From assembly GCF_006345805.1 (NCBI RefSeq), contig NC_043014.1, positions 11,718,001 through 11,782,000 on the forward strand: 64,000 nt of DNA, read 5' to 3'. Origin of the DNA: Octopus sinensis (lineage: Eukaryota). The position numbers and the translations under genes are program-made. Under the pieces are notes generated by a model. It was not told where the DNA came from, ran no database searches, and worked only from the letters and a program-made list of their open reading frames with translations. This document shows, piece by piece, positions 2,698-55,760 of this stretch. The first letter of the stretch is position 1; the number at the start of each line of letters is the position of its first letter.

Positions 2698-3264
2698 TTG
2701 GGTTGTCCGGAAAGTTCGCGCCGATTTTTAAAGGAAAGAAAAAGGTCAATAAATATTTGCCATTACATTTTTAATCAACCAAATATGAACCATTTTGTTG
2801 CACAATGCGTCTCCATTTTTCCTTTAACTCGAAAATACCCTCTTCCCAGAATTGAGGTGGTTTCAGGGCAAAGAATTCATCAAGGTATCTTTTTACATCA
2901 TCCAAGGAATTGAAATTTTTACCATTAAGACTATTCTGCAGAGACCTGAATATGTGGAAATCCGAAGGAGCAATATCTGGTGTATATGGAGGGTGGGGTG
3001 ACACATCCCAGCCGAGCTGCAGCAATTTTTGTCTTGGTTCCCAATGCATCAAGTGCCGAAAATGAACTTTCTTATCTTCCATTTTAAAGGGTTACAGAAT
3101 TAACACAGGTTATAGGAACATAAACCTTCTTCTTCGAAGAGATAGCTTAAACTGTGCTCTAAATGGAGATGTAGTGAAATCCTATTTTATGGACTCAACC
3201 ATGTTCTAAAATAAGTCGAAAGTCAAGCTACTATAAATCGGCACGAACTTTCCGGACAAACCAA
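2698..3264 (-). mobile_element. Internally deleted mariner element with ~30-bp TIRs and TA TSD
   Basis: TIRs ttgggttgtccggaaagttcgcgccgattt / aaatcggcacgaactttccggacaaaccaa, each flanked by TA. ORF 2771..3082 joins a transposase N-terminus (MEDKKVHFRHLM) to the C-terminus HPPYTPDIAPSDFHIFRSLQN...WRRIVQQNGSY (YSPDLAPSD motif). Confidence 0.92.
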
Positions 3265-26999: not shown

Positions 27000-27793
27000 A
27001 AATTATGTTAAAATACTAAAGAGTTAATTTATTCAGTAAAATCGCCATTGGCTTCAACCACGGCACCCAGACGACTTCGGAGTCTTCTGCAACTCTTCTG
27101 AACAGTCTCCTTGTTGTTGGTGAATGCTGCCATAATCTTTGCCTTCAGTTCATCTTTGGTGTTACAAGGAGTTTTGTTGGTCTCTCGCTCAACTGCGCCC
27201 TACACATAATAATCAAAGGGATTGCAGTCTAGGGAGTTAGGTGGCCAGATGTTAGGGGTGATGTGGTCGCAGAAATTGCCTGACAGCCATGACTGGGATC
27301 TCTTGCTTTTGTGGCATGGTTCAGAGTCCCGTTGTCAGACATAGGGTCTTCCAGCAGCTACCCTCTTTATCTAGGTCAGCATTCCCCCCTCTAGGCACTT
27401 GATGTAGGCCTCCGTGTTGAGTCTGAGGCCGTGTGGGAAGATGAATGGAGGCATAACGTTGCCATCACTAGTGATCACTACAAACACCATGATGTTGACG
27501 GGATGTTTTATTTTTATCACTCCCGGTACATGTTTTGAGGATACGGCAAGCCAACGGTAGTTCTGCGTGTTCACCATCAGTTCGTATTGAAGCTTCCGAC
27601 GCGAGGGCCAAGCTGTACAGCATGTCGTTTCCAAATTTCTGGCAGAATGAACCGCGTCATGGTGCTGTTTTTCTCACAGGCAGTGCCCAACTGACCCTAC
27701 TATACTGTGTAGTCGGCAAAATCAAAAGTAAGCACTGCCCATGCGTGAAATTAAAAATATAAAGTGGTGACAGTTTACCCATCGCACTCTGTA
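27000..27793 (-). mobile_element. maT (DD37D)-like transposon remnant
   Basis: KHPVNIMVFVVITSDGNVMPPFIFPHGLRLNTEAYIKCLE and a downstream WPPNSxDCNPFDYYV motif, with stops. TIR-like end tttacccatcgcactctgta. Confidence 0.75.
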
Positions 27794-30505: not shown

Positions 30506-30794
30506 CCGATGTGTGACGTAGGCAGATCTTCACGCTCAGAGTTGTTGAAGCATGGAACAAACTGCCTGCGCCAATTGTTGACTGCCATAACACTGCATCC
30601 TTTAAGGCCCTCATGCTTTCCGAAATCCGCCGAAACTACACCTGATTATACATACACTTTAGATGAGTTGTAGTGCACCTGAGCACTGTACACAATGTTT
30701 TATTATTATTTTATTATTATTATTATTCACCGTGCGACGACAAGGATTCAACTGCATGATAAACTGCATTACCTATTCCCGAGTTAACATATAT

Positions 30795-31216
30795 GTGGCT
30801 AATTTGTCCTACGAAGAAAGGCTGAGGACGCTCGACCTTTATTCTCTTGAAAAACGCCGCCGCCGTGGTGATCTCATTCTCGCCCACAACATCATAAGCG
30901 GAAAGTGTAACCTCTCGAAAGAGCTGTTCTTCACTCCTGCTCCAGAGCGTCGGCTGCGGGGTCATTCCGAAAAGCTCTACCTGCGACGATTTCATCTCAA
31001 TCGAAGGAGAGGAGCTTTCTCCGTCCGGGTTGCGGATCCGTGGAACAAGCAGCCAGACGAGATGGTGAAGATGCCGACGACCGCTTTGTTCAAAGCCTCC
31101 CTGGACCTCAAGTGGCCTGAACTCTTTACATGAACACCACCCTGTACTTAACTCCATGTCCCCCTACATGGCCTTGCTATTTGCTTTTGAGCCAAATTAA
31201 CTAACTAACTAACTAA
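30795..31216 (+). mobile_element. CR1-clade LINE 3' end with (TAAC)n tail
   Basis: LSYEERLRTLDLYSLEKRRRRGDLI...RLRGHSEKL...FSVRVADPWNK...FKASLD. A related fragment lies at ~58965-59200, and a second CR1-type 3' end at ~30510-30725 has a (TTA)n tail. Confidence 0.9.
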
Positions 31217-35192: not shown

Positions 35193-36013
35193 ATGTATAT
35201 ATATCACATGGTGCTATTAATTTGACATAGTTAGGGCCAGTCTTTAGTTGAAACATATCTATGTCATATATATATATATATATATATACTTTATTTAAAG
35301 CAGCAGAAAATTCTTTAATTCGGCAACGCGAAACTCAGAGTAACAGGTTTTGTGGAATTTTCTGCTGCTTTAAATAAAGCATATTACTCTACCACTGGTA
35401 TTTGAGTACTCTTTTTTCCACCTTGTTTCACATTTATGTATTTACTCCGATATATATATATATACTCAGAGTCCATAAAAAAAAATGTATACACACTTCA
35501 GGAAAGTGTTATTGCAAATTATTCGGTGTTGCCACAATTTAATAAAACATCGAAAAACTATTTATATTTATAGGGGTACTTATAAAAGTTAGTAATTTGT
35601 TTTTCACAGTTTAAACTCAAAGGGAAAAAGATATAAATAACAGCAGGTAATATTTGGGTTAGACCGCCCCCCCCCCCACGACCACCACCACTTCAACTTT
35701 TTCTGTCCAAAAAAGGGTTGTTTAATCCAATATTGACAAACTATTGTTTATAGATTTTGAGTCCCACAGTTTGAAATGAATATAATAATTCACTTCCCTG
35801 TTTTGTTCGAAATTTAAATATCATCAAATACATACTTATTTACTTTTGGTGTTGGTTGGTCGATGCCTTTAAATTCTATATCATTTGGAGAATTCCAAAA
35901 AAATAGAAAAGAACAAATTTTAAACTGTACCTCTGTTTTTATGGAAGTTCTTTTATAATTGATGTAAATTAAGTGTGAGAACAGAGCACAGGTCGAATGA
36001 TGAACCAATTCCA

Positions 36014-37114
36014 TTAGATAAAATCATTTTCAAATTGAATATGCTTTTGGAATTCTGTGTAAATTTTCAATTCTTTTGGTTGCAATAATTCCAAACAATC
36101 TTTGACAAAATCAACCACTGTTGGAATATGTCCATTTAATGAAAGCGTTTGCCATTTATTTCCAAAAAGTTTAAAGAATTCTTTGTTTTCTTGCATCAAA
36201 TTTTGCGATTCCATCCAAAATTGGTTACTTTGTACAAGAAGTTCTATTATTTCGACATAATCATTATTCAAAGAAAGCCATCGTCTTGAGACAATTATTG
36301 AATGGAAATTTTCATTCTGTGATAAATTAGAATGTTGTTGAATATAATTACCGAACTGCTGAGAAGGAAAATACTTACCAAACAACGTCTTTGATTCTTT
36401 GGTTAAATCAATTTTGAGCTGTTTCATTTTGAAATTTCTTAAGAGATAAATTTTTTGAGCTGCCGCAGTTTGGAGCAAAAGTTTCAATGCTTCCATCCTG
36501 GAATCATTAAAATGGCCAATTTTACCCAAAAACTCGAAGGTAGTCTGAAAAAATGTTACTACAGAATTATGGGGTACTCGTTCTTCTTCCATTCTATGGC
36601 CACACATAATATACCACATTGCGGACATCAAATTCAAAAACTTTTGAGCTGCTGGCTGCATTATTTTAGCCTGGTCTTTCAGATAATTGGCCCTTGCATT
36701 GTAAGAACCTGAATCATTGAAGCAGTGGGTTTCTAACAACCCAGATCCTAACAAGTGTGTATTTGTGTTGAATAGGCCCTCACTCTTTATTCTCCTGTGC
36801 TTCTGAGGATATGGATCTGACCTTAAAGTTTTAATGTCTTTCTGAATACAACAATATGGTATTTTATGAAGTAAAATAGTTTTTATTTTCACCATGATGG
36901 ATATATTCCAATTTTTTCTACTAAAATAGGAATGCTGCATTCTCTTTTTATAATTCTCATCAAATTTAGACTTCATTTTTATTTTTAGTTTGCTATCCAA
37001 TAAAGTCAATGGAATTTTGATGACCAATTTCTTTTCCCTTTGAGTCAGAGAATAAATAGGGAGTCTCAGAAGTGAGCATCTGTGATTGAAGATGTCAAAG
37101 GGCTGACTTTGTAT
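36014..37114 (-). CDS. AF4/FMR2-like protein, C-terminal part (AF9/ENL-binding motif + C-terminal homology domain)
   Basis: The frame is open from 37114 to the stop at 36014. KLVIKIPLTLL matches the LxVxIxLxxL AF9/ENL-binding motif. ARANYLKDQAKIM...AMWYIMCGHRMEEE...FFQTTFEFL and QSNQFWMESQNLMQENKEFF...LSLNGHIPTVVDFVKDCLELLQ align by eye to the AFF CHD (EAKxLKHKADAM...FIECGNAME...ELWEQAExLxKENKEFF...LxxxxxMxxLVxYxxxGLxWLR). Confidence 0.75.
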   Translation of the reverse strand: MQSQPFDIFNHRCSLLRLPIYSLTQREKKLVIKIPLTLLDSKLKIKMKSKFDENYKKRMQHSYFSRKNWNISIMVKIKTILLHKIPYCCIQKDIKTLRSDPYPQKHRRIKSEGLFNTNTHLLGSGLLETHCFNDSGSYNARANYLKDQAKIMQPAAQKFLNLMSAMWYIMCGHRMEEERVPHNSVVTFFQTTFEFLGKIGHFNDSRMEALKLLLQTAAAQKIYLLRNFKMKQLKIDLTKESKTLFGKYFPSQQFGNYIQQHSNLSQNENFHSIIVSRRWLSLNNDYVEIIELLVQSNQFWMESQNLMQENKEFFKLFGNKWQTLSLNGHIPTVVDFVKDCLELLQPKELKIYTEFQKHIQFENDFI

Positions 37115-38985
37115 TTAGGGGAAGAAAAAATCAAAGCAGCTGATATATCTTTTTCTATATTGAGACAGGGCCTCAAGCTCTTTTGATAAGTTCCAGTTGC
37201 ATAAGGTTTTACAAATTCCTGCGTATCAACCATCTGTCTCAGATGACCATCTTTTGAAAATTTATTCTCCAAGACTTTTTCACTAGAAAATGTAATTTTA
37301 AGTGGAGACATTTCAGAGGTATTTGCAAAAGATATTTCATGGGAAGGTGACTGGTGTTCAGTTTTGTACTGATATTTGTAGCTCAGTTCTTTCAAAGGAC
37401 TTTCTTTGGCAATGATCTTAATACTCTTTTCATCTTGTATCTCATTTATGTAAGTGTATTTCGTCTGTTTTATGTATTTATTTTCATCCGCAGCATTAAC
37501 ATGTGGTACAACCTGATGCACAGTCATTGAACACTTTTGCTCCTTTGACATGTTAAAGTTGTATTCCATCATATTCGTTAAGCCCTTTTTCCTTTCGTTC
37601 ATAACAGATTTGTCACTTTTTATGTAGTTAAAACCTTGTGGCAAATCTTTTCTTTCTTTAGGCAATGAACAGTTGGCTATATTATCCAAACTTGAAAGAT
37701 ATTTTTCTGTTTTAGTCATTATTTCGACACTATAGGAATCACTTCTAGGGTAATACAATTTTTTATTAATTTCTTCAATTCCATATTTAATCTTTTTATC
37801 ATATATTGGAGCAGTTGGAGATGTGTGGACAGAAACAACCGAAGTGTTTTTATTATCGGACACATAACCTCCTCTTGAACTCTGCTTTACAACAGAGAAT
37901 TGTGAATACTGAGGTTCTAAAATATGTCTTTCTTTCCATTCTTTCACATTTTCAGATTTCTGTTTTATGTTAAGCTCATCAACAAGAGGAGGCCAGACAT
38001 CATTCAATCCAACATCTTCTGTACTAGGTTCCGAATCATTATTTTCAGTGTTTTTAAATGTTGGACTTTGAATAGGACTAATCGGCTTTAAATTGGCAAT
38101 AATTTCAGAGAATATAGTCTGTAGGGAAATGATTGGTTTATTGCTAACTGGCCTTGACAATCTTTGATCCGGTTGCTTAGAATTTTCCCATTCATTTACG
38201 GGTGAAGAAATCGGGGAGAGGGGAGGCTCAAGAGCTGATTTTACAATTGTCAGCCTAAATATTTCTTCAACACTTTTGTTTTTCAATGAATCCTTTCTGA
38301 TGTCAGTAATCAGAGATTTACCATTTCCTATCTCCTGTTGTTCTGGTTTACAATGCATATCCTTACTGACTCCATTCTTTTGAAGGGTCGTTGCTTGACC
38401 AGATGCTGGTAAAAGAGATGATTGTGTAGGCCCATGATTGTCTGTTGGTATTTCTATATTTAAATCTATGGATTTTACTGGATCAAAATTAATAGGGGTT
38501 GAAGTGTTCTCTGCCTGGTTAAAAGAAGTTAGAACAGTAGAAGGAACAAGTGTTTGTGGAGGCTCTAGGGTCTGGCTGTGTATTTTATTATGATTGCCAT
38601 TACTGTGTATATTTACCTTACATTCATTATTATGGGTTTCTAAAGAGTGTACAACAGATTTAGACTTTTTATTTGCAGAAATAAGTGAAGATGTTGTTTT
38701 CTGATGCCTCATTGGGGGAACCTTAACATCTGGTTGCATATTTTTAGTGAAAGGGCCGATTCCTCTGTATGAAACATCAAGTCTGCGATCTGGGAAATTG
38801 TGTAGAATTTCAGGACGTTCTTGTGAGGAGATGTATATAAAATCAGAAATAAAGTTCTGCATAAGTTCATAGTTTCCAAGAATTCTTTTACACTTTCGGT
38901 TTATTGGATCCTCATTCATCTCAAATATACGACACGGGGAACCAAATACTGGAATGTTTTTCATAGATTCTTCACTATCTGCCAT
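37066..38985 (-). CDS. AF4/FMR2 (AFF/lilliputian)-like protein, N-terminal part (ORF1 of a split single-exon gene)
   Basis: Track ORF 37066..39147 (693 aa) is a long, non-repeat ORF. PVFGSPCRIFEMNEDPINRKCKRILGNYELMQNFI resembles the AFF N-terminal P-TEFb-binding motif (LFGEPYK...RIQxMLGNYEEMKxFI). SVEEIFRL...EPPLSPISSP resembles the ALF/ELL-binding motif ([22 protein letters not shown]). The likely start is the ATG at 38985 (aagatcATGG context), just downstream of a polypyrimidine tract + CAG acceptor. Confidence 0.75.
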   Translation of the reverse strand: MADSEESMKNIPVFGSPCRIFEMNEDPINRKCKRILGNYELMQNFISDFIYISSQERPEILHNFPDRRLDVSYRGIGPFTKNMQPDVKVPPMRHQKTTSSLISANKKSKSVVHSLETHNNECKVNIHSNGNHNKIHSQTLEPPQTLVPSTVLTSFNQAENTSTPINFDPVKSIDLNIEIPTDNHGPTQSSLLPASGQATTLQKNGVSKDMHCKPEQQEIGNGKSLITDIRKDSLKNKSVEEIFRLTIVKSALEPPLSPISSPVNEWENSKQPDQRLSRPVSNKPIISLQTIFSEIIANLKPISPIQSPTFKNTENNDSEPSTEDVGLNDVWPPLVDELNIKQKSENVKEWKERHILEPQYSQFSVVKQSSRGGYVSDNKNTSVVSVHTSPTAPIYDKKIKYGIEEINKKLYYPRSDSYSVEIMTKTEKYLSSLDNIANCSLPKERKDLPQGFNYIKSDKSVMNERKKGLTNMMEYNFNMSKEQKCSMTVHQVVPHVNAADENKYIKQTKYTYINEIQDEKSIKIIAKESPLKELSYKYQYKTEHQSPSHEISFANTSEMSPLKITFSSEKVLENKFSKDGHLRQMVDTQEFVKPYATGTYQKSLRPCLNIEKDISAALIFSSPKYKVSPLTSSITDAHF

Positions 38986-39005
38986 GATCTTAATACGAAA
39001 TACAA

Positions 39006-39084
39006 CTGGAAGAAAAAAAAAATAGAAAAGAAAAAAATTACTGAAAACTGTTAAAATACTAAACTGATAATTCTCTTTACTCAC
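39006..39084 (-). promoter_or_regulatory. Candidate short 5'-UTR intron of the AFF-like gene
   Basis: On the minus strand, GTGAGT donor at 39084-39079, then a long T-rich tract ending TTCTTCCAG at 39006, 20 nt upstream of ATG 38985. The acceptor is better supported than the donor; other possible donors lie at 39090, 39097 and 41643. Confidence 0.45.
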
Positions 39085-40393: not shown

Positions 40394-40955
40394 CACAGAA
40401 TGTTTTCACCTCAATAGACGGTCATTGATTGGTTGAAATTGCCGAAATGCAAGAAATTAAAGACCAAATATTTTACAAACTATAGAATTTTCTCAATAAA
40501 GCCAAGAGAAAAAGATGTTTTATAAACACATTCTACCAGTATACAAAGTTTAAAATGTTTTAGTTACCTAGAAATTATGTTAAAAACTGCCGTTCAAACC
40601 GAAAAGATCCGAGAGGGAAATTAAAACTGCATATGTTGTGAATATGTGTTTATTAATAAAAGTTTAATAACGATAATCTTTTATTCATACGAACGTAACT
40701 GATAGGAAATATGTCATAAATAACAGGGACAAATTGATATGACACCGCCAGAAAATGTTGTCGACAAAATACGGCAGATATTGTATTCACTTCAATAGAC
40801 GGTCATTGATTGGTTGAAATTGCCGAAATGCAAGAAATTAAACAACAAATAGCTTACAAACTACAGAATTTTCTCAAGAAAGCCAAGAGAAAAAGATGTT
40901 TTATGTAACACATTCTACCAGTATACGAAGTTTAAAAGTGTTTAGTTACAAAGAA
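40394..40955 (+). repeat. Unclassified interspersed repeat with internal direct duplication; family copy at ~63740-64000
   Basis: tcaatagacggtcattgattggttgaaattgccgaaatgcaagaaatt occurs at ~40411 and ~40792, and a related sequence occurs at ~63947. Confidence 0.6.
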
Positions 40956-40961
40956 ATTATT

Positions 40962-41308
40962 ATCCGAGCGTGGCCGTCTGCCAGCCTCGTCTGGCACCTG
41001 TGTCGGTGGCACATAAAAAACACCATCCGAGCGTGGCCGTCTGCCAGCCTCGTCTGGCACCTGTGTCGGTGGCACATAAAAAACACCATCCGAGCGTGGC
41101 TGTCTGCCAGCCTCGTCTGGTACCAGTGTCGGTGGCACATAAAATCACCCACTACACTCTCGGAGTGGTTGGGGTTAGGAAGGGCATCCAGCTGTAGAAA
41201 CACTGCCAGATCTGACTGGCCTGGTGCAGCCTTCGGGCTTGCCAGACCCCAGTTGAACCGTCCAACCCATGCTAGCATGGAAAGCGGACGTTAAACGATG
41301 ATGATGAA
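40962..41308 (+). mobile_element. Retroelement 3' portion with 3 x 63-bp internal tandem repeat and (GAT)n tail
   Basis: atccgagcgtggccgtctgccagcctcgtctggcacctgtgtcggtggcacataaaaaacacc repeated three times, then ttaggaagggcatccagc...aaacgatgatgatg. Degenerate relative at ~39550-39780. Confidence 0.65.
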
Positions 41309-54429: not shown

Positions 54430-55760
54430 CTGGTTTGCACACTACGGCAACACCTTTGTTCTGCTTTCATTATTCTGTGTAACGTCCTTTCTTTTTTATT
54501 TCAGATTCTTCCGTTTTGAATGAAAATATCCCATCAAGACAGCTTTTTCAGTGAATATGATGGGTAATTATACATATCGAGCATACATTAAGTATATATT
54601 TAACAGAAAACCATAATATCATAACAGTTATTGACATAATGAATTATTTATCCACATGAACACCTAGGAAGAAACGATCCGATTGTGGGACCTCCAAGAC
54701 TGTGGGAGTAATGGATTTAAGGAATATTGGCTGCAAGTTATGTGGGAACCCTGGACAAACAAGCAATGCCATTTTCATTACCTCCGGACTTCTTCACGTA
54801 CCGAAAACCACCAGAAATCGCATCCTCGAGACCATGGCTTCCGTTTGAGAACTCCTGAATCTCCCTCCTCACAGGAGTTTGAGACTTCAATGGGGCCAAA
54901 AGTACGCGACGTTAGACATGAGTCGTGTTCTTTTCACTGACGAAACCAGGGCAGCCCTTGATGAACCCGACGGTTGGCCAAATGGTTGGGTCTGTTTTGG
55001 AGGTGAGCGTCACCAACGTTTACGACGTCAACAACAGGGTGCAGGAGTCATACTGTGGGCTGGTATCATTGGGGACAGATTTGTTGGCGCAGTCAGGGTG
55101 CCTGAAATAATTAAAATGACCGTATTTGCCTACTGCAATTTCCTGAGGGAAGTCTTGAATCCCTGGCTAGATGACATACTACAGTCACTTCTAAGGAATC
55201 TCATATTCATACATAACAACACTCCCTCCCATTCTGCTAGGGCCACCTAAATATTCCTTGGGTCTTATGGCATACAAGGTGAAAGGTTGATGTTGTGGCC
55301 GCTAGCATCTCCGGATCTCAATCCTATCGAAAATCGTGGGTCCATCATTAAACAAAATGCCTATGCCGATGGACGCTAATTTAAGTCGAAAGATGTCTTA
55401 TGGGCAACCATCAAAGCTGCTGTAGAGGTAATCCAACCTTTTAGTATTGACAGATTCCATCAGTAATAGGGATTTTGAAGTTCTCTGTCGAAATGGCGCT
55501 CATGTGACTAAATAATTCAGTATGTCAATAAATGTTATAGTATTATGGTTTTCTGTTGAATATACACTCAATGTATGCTTAATATGTATAATTTCTCATC
55601 ATTTTCTGATTAAAAAAATGTCTAAATGAGCTATTTTCATTGAAAAACGATTAGCTTGGTTCACCCCCAAATTGAAGAATCTGAAATAAAAAAAAAAAGA
55701 AAGGGTGTTACATAAGATAATGAAAACATAACAATGGTGTTGCCAGACTGTGCAAAAGAG
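54430..55760 (+). mobile_element. Tc1-family transposon remnant with ~200-bp TIRs
   Basis: VLFTDE...GVILWAGI...FIHNNTPSH...WPLASPDLNPIEN. 54430-54650 is the inverted repeat of 55510-55760. A second transposase fragment lies at ~57100-57450. Confidence 0.85.

What the first reader, a model, noticed from the sequence alone, without database searches (positions are those of the whole stretch)
36014..38985. Intron-poor, highly divergent AF4/FMR2 (super elongation complex scaffold) paralog, likely a retrogene
Seen: about 3 kb of coding sequence with no TE or microsatellite insertion in a window otherwise saturated with them, and only one frame break. Four AFF hallmarks occur in the right order: P-TEFb-binding N-terminus, ELL-binding ALF motif, LxVxIxLxxL AF9/ENL motif and CHD. 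Established: invertebrates usually have one multi-exon AFF gene (lilliputian). Inference: this is a retroposed, rapidly diverged second AFF that gained a 5'-UTR intron. It could be a lineage- or tissue-specific (e.g. germline) SEC scaffold. No SIAH degron (PxAxVRPMDGQD) is recognisable, which could make it more stable.
Basis: partly seen in the sequence, partly recalled or inferred. Interest (0 to 1): 0.8.

Follow-up and report, generated by a model that had tools for sequence, protein, structure and literature searches.

The report
Octopus's two intron-free AFF elongation scaffolds
This is a real, old and fast-changing second copy of the gene for the scaffold that helps RNA polymerase II resume after pausing; its one frame break is an assembly error, the octopus's only other copy found also has no introns in its coding region, and the intron-rich ancestral gene has likely been lost.

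Summary
Window 38985-36014 (minus) encodes a 990-aa AF4/FMR2 protein (AFF-B). The frame break is a missing base in an A-run: 3 of 3 runs bridging it carry the base, and the O. vulgaris protein is whole. The C-terminal CHD passes Pfam and folds like AFF4-CHD. The cyclin-T motif and two AF9/ENL boxes score above shuffles; the ELL box is degenerate. Listed C-terminal variants are 13 synonymous to 1 non-synonymous.

The expected multi-exon parent was not found. The only other AFF (AFF-A, 1912 aa, same scaffold, 30.6 Mb away) is also one open frame. A and B form one clade, and each has orthologs in a distant unnamed lineage (likely other coleoids). Both carry doubled AF9 boxes and a CHD signature absent from other animals here. 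Best reading: a cephalopod ancestor's AFF lost its coding introns and doubled its docking motifs, then duplicated; B shrank and evolved faster. Degron absence is not B-specific. Expression and tissue are not shown. Retrogene replacement and invertebrate AFF pairs have precedents; this case was not found in print.

The parts
36014..38985 (-). AFF-B coding sequence, single coding exon, 990 aa in the living gene
37097..37099 (.). A-run one base short in the assembly; cause of the apparent frame break
   Evidence: table 4: extra A in X1, X3, X14; intact orthologs
39006..39040 (-). Polypyrimidine tract and AG: predicted acceptor of a 5'-UTR intron, 20 nt before the ATG
   Evidence: sequence; splicing not shown
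38842..38964 (-). Cyclin-T (P-TEFb) binding motif, aa 8-48 (AFF4 L34/F35/P38/L56/G57/Y59 positions = V/F/P/L/G/Y); the preceding basic helix (AFF4 3-21) is absent
   Evidence: 24.2 bits vs shuffle max 5.4; contact residues from PMC8022399 and PMC3589825
38710..38853 (-). B-specific conserved segment, aa 45-92, shared with distant B orthologs; partner unknown
   Evidence: alignment
38200..38271 (-). ELL-box-like segment 1, aa 239-262, degenerate
   Evidence: not above shuffles; aligns to a KEM-bearing box of P0032/P0034
38062..38124 (-). ELL-box-like segment 2, aa 288-308, degenerate
   Evidence: aligns to the P0032 box that does score (1 of 100 shuffles as high)
36998..37027 (-). AF9/ENL-binding box 1, aa 654-663
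   Evidence: 0 of 100 shuffles as high (scored on P0003)
36857..36898 (-). AF9/ENL-binding box 2, aa 697-710
   Evidence: 5 of 100 shuffles as high in P0003, 0 of 100 in P0004
36074..36712 (-). C-terminal homology domain (CHD/THD), about aa 759-971; dimer-core aromatics kept (Y847, Y910); internal Ser/Pro loop deleted
35500..36013 (-). Probable 3'-UTR, repeat-free; candidate poly(A) signals ATTAAA at 35726 and 35543
   Evidence: one X1 contig runs about 196 letters beyond 35700; end not shown

Best explanation
AFF-B is an intact, single-coding-exon AF4/FMR2 gene kept under purifying selection, and it likely works as a second, compact scaffold of the super elongation complex. Predicted mechanism: aa 8-48 dock on cyclin T, two LxVxIxLxxL boxes recruit the AF9/ENL AHD domain, the CHD dimerises (possibly with AFF-A), and ELL binding is weakened or altered. 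Inferred history: in a cephalopod ancestor the AFF gene lost all coding introns through a reverse-transcribed copy and doubled its AF9 and ELL boxes. The intron-rich parent disappeared, and the intronless gene duplicated, probably at DNA level on the same chromosome, into AFF-A (1912 aa) and AFF-B. B lost about half its length, the N-terminal helix and the CHD loop, and evolved several times faster. Shown: intact ORF, family identity, two loci, both without coding introns, selection, deep orthologs. Inferred: loss of the parent, order of events, partner binding, taxon of the deep orthologs.
For: Intact. Identity: Pfam; AF2 model pLDDT 87.5, pTM 0.82, whose only PDB hits at E<=0.001 are the three AFF4 CHD structures. 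Selection: of 38 coding variants listed, aa 625-990 hold 13 synonymous to 1 non-synonymous against 20% synonymous sites (binomial p 9e-9, no transition correction); aa 1-629 hold 9 to 15 (p 0.053). P0003 vs P0004 identity is 86-89% in motif/CHD blocks and 66-70% in spacers. No parent: PF18876, fish CHD and Solemya CHD find only A and B as credible hits. The Solemya query still picked up B at 27-29% identity, and the same tool found ELL's domain split into 47- and 56-aa exons. No cephalopod-named protein is among the 120 listed of 186 relatives of the Solemya CHD. A is one open frame with an in-frame stop just before its ATG. Ancestral state: fragments of bivalve AFF clusters stop at one shared residue (852 in 8 of 10 tested, 827 in 3 of 4), as exon ends would; human AFF2 has 22 exons (PMC2651778). 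Common origin: A+B clade 99/98 in 44 rows, 98 in 50 rows. The IG[HCY][YF] CHD signature occurs in 21 of 312 stored proteins, all A- or B-type. Two AF9 boxes at <=5 of 100 shuffles in 3 of 4 A-type and 3 of 4 B-type proteins, one in 14 of 15 outgroups. Linkage: both on C18 here; the O. vulgaris A and B records both list a 73,562,531-base contig. C18 is 2% of the genome. Heterodimer: A-CHD x B-CHD score 0.67, best control 0.01, runs share >=38% of contacts, partner pLDDT >=77; the mark was reached by 51 of 78 solved and 2 of 108 mismatched pairs (eukaryotes 39 of 65 and 2 of 126). The interface uses Y847, Y910, V911, equal to AFF4 F1014, Y1096, V1097.
Against: Expression is not shown. With the Ser/Pro loop removed and 21 rows, A+B falls to 75/97 and the AU test against 'A with other molluscs, without B' is only p 0.045; both stems are long, so attraction is possible. 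The ELL boxes of Octopus B do not beat shuffles, and with the gapped HMM the AF9 boxes of A and B did not beat the best shuffle either; they pass only with the ungapped matrix. The heterodimer pass may be from memory of the solved AFF4 CHD dimer; close relatives tend to pass, so it shows likeness, not that this pair binds. Absence of a parent rests on one assembly and capped candidate lists (6, 14 and 8 candidates); a gap or very short exons could hide it. The deep orthologs are unnamed. Saccostrea also gave a second borderline AF9 hit.
Confidence: 0.65

Rival explanations
1. One copy is the original locus, which lost its coding introns in place by recombination with its own cDNA and kept only 5'-UTR introns; the other is its duplicate. 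No parent was lost.
For: Both genes have predicted acceptors upstream of the ATG (B; A: acceptor and donor motifs at L006 about 9158 and 8972). It needs no separate loss.
Against: It needs a 4-6 kb conversion tract removing every coding intron (inference). Synteny could not be tested; no neighbouring gene was recognised among 110 flanking frames.
Confidence: 0.2
2. AFF-B is a retrocopy of AFF-A, or A and B are two independent retrocopies of a lost or unassembled multi-exon parent (closest to the first reader's view).
For: B is intronless, short, AT-rich (GC3 0.28-0.33 vs 0.45 in A) and fast; LINE reverse-transcriptase fragments lie nearby; an intronless parent leaves no trace that would separate the routes.
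Against: Same scaffold for A and B in two species, about 2% by chance; no multi-exon locus found.
Confidence: 0.1
3. AFF-B is not a working activator but a dampener: it dimerises with AFF-A and binds cyclin T and AF9/ENL while failing to bring ELL, so it titrates SEC activity.
For: ELL boxes degenerate in Octopus B; N-terminal helix and CHD loop lost; dimer core and cyclin-T motif kept.
Against: Distant B orthologs keep a scoring ELL box (P0032, P0034); AFF4 32-67 alone binds P-TEFb only 3.6-fold weaker (PMC3589825). This rival concerns function and is compatible with the history above.
Confidence: 0.25
4. It is a processed pseudogene disabled by the frameshift.
For: The break in the assembly; no run on record as RNA could confirm a transcript.
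Against: Reads carry the missing base; whole orthologs; 13:1 synonymous excess; well-folded CHD.
Confidence: 0.02

Closest known systems
AF4/FMR2 (ALF) family: human AFF1-4, Drosophila lilliputian, single-copy mollusc AFF4-like
   Same: Order of modules (cyclin-T motif, ELL box, AF9/ENL box, CHD); CHD fold and dimer-core aromatics.
   Different: No coding introns; 990 aa; CHD only 21-24% identical to fish, bivalve and AFF-A CHDs; two AF9 boxes; degenerate ELL boxes; N-terminal helix and CHD Ser/Pro loop missing; B-specific segment aa 45-92 and extra C-terminal helix.
Octopus AFF-A (P0006 = XP_029647915.1; G000:C18:42349846-42355584)
   Same: Single coding exon, doubled AF9 and ELL boxes, IG[HCY][YF] signature, no degron, same scaffold.
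   Different: Twice as long, Ser-rich, keeps the N-terminal helix and CHD loop, 39% identical to the bivalve CHD, much slower.
Retrogene replacement / orphan retrogenes (amphioxus SYCP1, PMC5803294, abstract read; human orphan retrogenes, PMC3548309, search listing only)
   Same: Single coding exon of about 3 kb, multi-exon parent absent, 5'-UTR exons.
   Different: Here the intronless gene was then duplicated and both copies kept; in-place intron loss is not excluded.
C. elegans affl-1/affl-2 (bioRxiv 10.1101/817833, passages read)
   Same: An invertebrate with two AFF paralogs, one needed for heat-shock transcription and one without a phenotype.
   Different: Independent duplication; the passages read say nothing on intron loss or doubled boxes.

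Membership tests
AF4/FMR2 (AFF) | C-terminal homology domain (PF18876) and its fold | tested here: met
   Atlas structure hit TM 0.72 to AFF1
AF4/FMR2 (AFF) | N-terminal cyclin-T binding motif (AFF4 34-66) | tested here: met
   sequence motif only, binding not tested
AF4/FMR2 (AFF) | Pfam AF-4 (PF05110) above cut-off | tested here: inconclusive
   22.8 vs 26.9 bits; AFF-A and several named bivalve AFFs also lack it, so it does not define invertebrate members
AF4/FMR2 (AFF) | ELL-binding box | tested here: inconclusive
   not above shuffles in Octopus B; aligned boxes score in P0032/P0034
AF4/FMR2 (AFF) | AF9/ENL box LxVxIxLxxV/L | tested here: met
   two copies by ungapped matrix, weak by gapped HMM; consensus from PMC8022399
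AF4/FMR2 (AFF) | CHD dimer core (F1014, Y1096) | tested here: met
   Y and Y in 5 of 5 B-type rows shown; model
AF4/FMR2 (AFF) | Assembles SEC and stimulates elongation in cells | not testable with these tools
   needs pull-down and reporter assays
Vertebrate AFF1-4 subfamily | SIAH degron KPTAYVRP | tested here: not met
   absent from A, B and the named molluscs and nemerteans shown (that output was partly cut)
Classical retrogene | Coding region without the introns of orthologs | tested here: met
   ancestral exons inferred and PMC2651778
Classical retrogene | Intron-containing parent in the same genome | tested here: not met
Classical retrogene | Poly(A) remnant and target-site duplication | not tested
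   not expected to survive at this age
Orphan (replacement) retrogene | Located away from the ancestral syntenic position | not testable with these tools
   no related genomes are held for G000

The most novel reading that the evidence does not exclude
Coleoid cephalopods rebuilt their elongation scaffold: the multi-exon AFF was replaced by two intron-free genes whose products heterodimerise and carry doubled AF9/ENL and ELL docking sites, with AFF-B a tissue-restricted subunit lacking the CHD regulatory loop. This would be a lineage-wide change in how Pol II pause release is wired, in the animals with the largest invertebrate brains.
Probability: 0.2. Interest if true: 0.75.

Novelty: new variant of a known kind. 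Interest (0 to 1): 0.52.

Why it matters
AFF is a core, usually single-copy and multi-exon transcription gene in invertebrates. Finding both octopus copies without coding introns, the parent apparently gone and partner-binding boxes doubled points to an old rearrangement of a basal transcription machine in cephalopods. It offers a natural test of scaffold valency (one vs two AF9 and ELL sites) and of AFF heterodimer function. It also corrects this assembly, where the gene looks broken. The ingredients (retrogene replacement, invertebrate AFF pairs) are known, and function is untested, so interest is moderate.

Tried and rejected
A small intron at the break: rejected, reads show a single missing base. 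Expression: no RNA holder listed. One X1 contig (run kind not on record) covers 35700-39007 and X14 (RNA only a guess) covers parts of 35764-38110; lack of cover over the predicted intron is not usable, since the tool skipped 39008-39040, and no splice joint was listed. Single-sequence AF2 fold failed (pLDDT 39). An own-genome search with a 42-aa Patella N-terminal stretch found nothing, not even A or B, so it is uninformative; PF05110 missed A. Weak own-genome hits L005 and L018-L020 (E>1, mostly with stops) were dismissed. Whole-protein P0013 searches failed twice on the machine. A co-duplicated SEC: ELL C-domain and AHD were each found at one locus only; cyclin T, CDK9 and EAF were not searched. 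Host or neighbouring genes: 110 of 169 candidate flanking frames were scanned; only two RT-related fragments and the AHD control hit. Codon-level dN/dS between species could not be run (no ortholog DNA). Literature searches: 'super elongation complex'+cephalopod, octopus+AF4+FMR2, squid+lilli+AFF gave 0 papers; searches listed nothing on cephalopod AFF by title or abstract start. Supplementary gene tables of cephalopod genome papers were not searched and could list these genes.
Full report
Observation. The window lies at G000:C18:11718001-11782000 of a 2.72-Gb genome; the second AFF protein of this genome is identical to a record named Octopus sinensis. Two minus-strand frames cover 38985-37066 and 37114-36014. 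ATG to TAA is 2972 nt, one base short of 990 codons plus stop. The region is the longest stretch of the window without an internal repeat match (3867 nt vs 2091 for the next) and narrowly the longest without tandem repeats.

The break is an assembly error. The O. vulgaris protein P0003 (CAI9737402.1, 990 aa) matches 608 of 629 and 358 of 360 residues on the two sides and reads through. Of four runs laid, the three whose contigs bridge the site all carry one more A behind 37096. P0004 and P0005 (979 aa, unnamed, 79% identical) are also whole.

Identity. PF18876 scores 43.3 bits against a cut-off of 24. An AF2 model on a 35-row alignment has pLDDT 87.5 and pTM 0.82; its only PDB matches at E<=0.001 are the three AFF4 CHD structures, TM 0.58-0.64. 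A profile from 103 non-cephalopod N-termini scores aa 8-48 at 24 bits against a best of 5.4 in 500 local shuffles. The cyclin-T contact positions named in PMC8022399 (passages) are mostly kept or conservatively changed. The AFF4 3-21 helix is missing in B, but adds only 3.6-fold to affinity (PMC3589825, passages). Two AF9/ENL boxes at aa 654 and 697 reach 0 and 5 of 100 shuffles with an ungapped matrix but were weak with a gapped HMM. The ELL-type segments at aa 239 and 288 do not beat shuffles in Octopus; they align to boxes of distant B proteins, one of which does. The CHD lacks the Ser/Pro loop kept in the other animals shown; that this loop is a CDK9 target is recalled, not read.

Selection. 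One search listed 40 of 67 variant rows; I dropped 2 in the 3'-UTR and classed 38. In aa 625-990, 13 are synonymous and 1 is not, where 20% of sites are synonymous (p 9e-9, transition bias not corrected). In aa 1-629 the count is 9 to 15 (p 0.053). The variants mix runs of two organism labels, and two codons carry two changes each. Against P0004, motif and CHD blocks are 80-89% identical and spacers 66-70%.

The parent. PF18876 finds a second locus at C18:42.35 Mb. It is one open frame of 1912 aa with a stop directly before its ATG and a full N-terminus: AFF-A has no coding introns either. A fish CHD finds only A. A Solemya CHD finds A strongly, B weakly, and three hits at E>1. The same tool found ELL's C-domain as two exons of 47 and 56 aa, so exons of that size are visible. 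None of the 120 listed of 186 relatives of the Solemya CHD is named as a cephalopod. Fragments in bivalve AFF clusters end repeatedly at the same residue, as exon ends would, and human AFF2 has 22 exons (PMC2651778, passages). So the multi-exon gene is likely ancestral and likely absent here; an assembly gap is not excluded.

Age and kinship. A profile of the A and B CHDs gave 235 hits at E<=0.001, 150 listed. Unnamed B-type proteins (P0032, P0034, P0027, P0070) are about 40% identical to B in the CHD and share B-only segments. P0034 spans N-terminus to CHD as one called ORF on a 626-kb contig, which suggests it is intronless too. Unnamed A-type proteins are 61-65% identical to A. In a 44-row CHD tree (6 unnamed non-cephalopod rows left out; restored with the same result) A (98/96) and B (100/99) are sisters (99/98), each split into an Octopus group and a deep unnamed group; that split is about four times deeper in B. 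That the deep group is squid or cuttlefish is my inference. With 21 rows and the loop removed, A+B drops to 75/97 and the AU test gives p 0.045. Independent of the tree, an IG[HCY][YF] signature is found in 21 of 312 stored proteins, all A or B, and doubled AF9 boxes are shared by A and B against single boxes in 14 of 15 outgroups. A has two ELL boxes above the shuffle maximum in 4 of 6 proteins, outgroups one. The degron is absent from A, B and the named molluscs shown, so it says nothing special about B.

Route of duplication. A and B share a scaffold here, 30.6 Mb apart, and the two O. vulgaris records list a contig of the same length. C18 is 2% of the genome, which favours DNA-level duplication of an already intronless gene over a random retro-insertion (inference). 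Both genes have splice-site motifs upstream of the ATG, compatible with gained UTR exons or with in-place intron loss.

Mechanism. B most likely acts as a compact SEC scaffold. The dimer-core residues F1014 and Y1096 of AFF4 (PMC7026398, passages) map to Y847 and Y910. A predicted A-CHD x B-CHD complex scores 0.67 against a best control of 0.01, with runs sharing at least 38% of contacts and partner pLDDT at least 77; the mark was reached by 51 of 78 solved and 2 of 108 mismatched pairs (eukaryotes 39 of 65, 2 of 126), and my alignments were not used. Because the AFF4 CHD dimer is solved, this shows likeness, not binding. ELL and AF9/ENL domains were each found once in the genome, so B would share partners with A. 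Whether it activates or dampens depends on ELL binding, which is open. Expression is not shown.

Comparison and verdict. It is a member of the AF4/FMR2 family by CHD, cyclin-T motif, AF9 boxes and dimer core. It fails the classical retrogene test of a parent in the same genome. Retrogene replacement is known (PMC5803294, abstract and outline), as is an invertebrate AFF pair (bioRxiv 10.1101/817833, passages). Searches found no paper on cephalopod AFF; the proteins exist only as automatic annotations. New variant of a known kind; interest 0.52.

Noticed in passing
G000:C18:42349846-42355584 (L006:2846-8584, minus): AFF-A: a 5.7-kb single-exon AFF coding region with two ELL and two AF9 boxes, annotated only as 'serine-rich adhesin for platelets-like'; candidate 5'-UTR exon at about L006 9157-8975.
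   Followed up: yes
G000:C17:45051433-45053442 (L022:5433-7442, plus): The AF9/ENL-like gene has a 669-codon open frame ending in the AHD, apparently one very large last exon starting after an acceptor-like motif; no YEATS domain in this frame.
   Followed up: partly
G000:C2:51675349-51676393 (L012, L013): Single ELL C-terminal domain, split over two exons.
   Followed up: partly
P0009, P0019, P0027, P0034, P0173 (unnamed ENA/JGI records): Shortened or internally repeated A- and B-type proteins (343-1113 aa); may be extra copies, decaying copies or misassemblies in the deep lineage.
   Followed up: no
window 40946-41150: About three tandem copies of a roughly 57-nt unit within a common octopus repeat.
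   Followed up: no
window 2774-3091, 27374-27673, 54849-55247: Short frames resembling Tc1/mariner transposase fragments by eye; those scanned had no Pfam hit at E<=0.001.
   Followed up: partly
L024:4589-5191 and window 30663-31130: A reverse-transcriptase fragment just beyond the window (PF00078) and a LINE-like C-terminal fragment inside it (by eye, no Pfam hit).
   Followed up: partly
window 36480-38974: DNA run X3 differs from the assembly at 23 of 2496 bases in the gene, indicating high allelic diversity or mixed species labels.
   Followed up: partly
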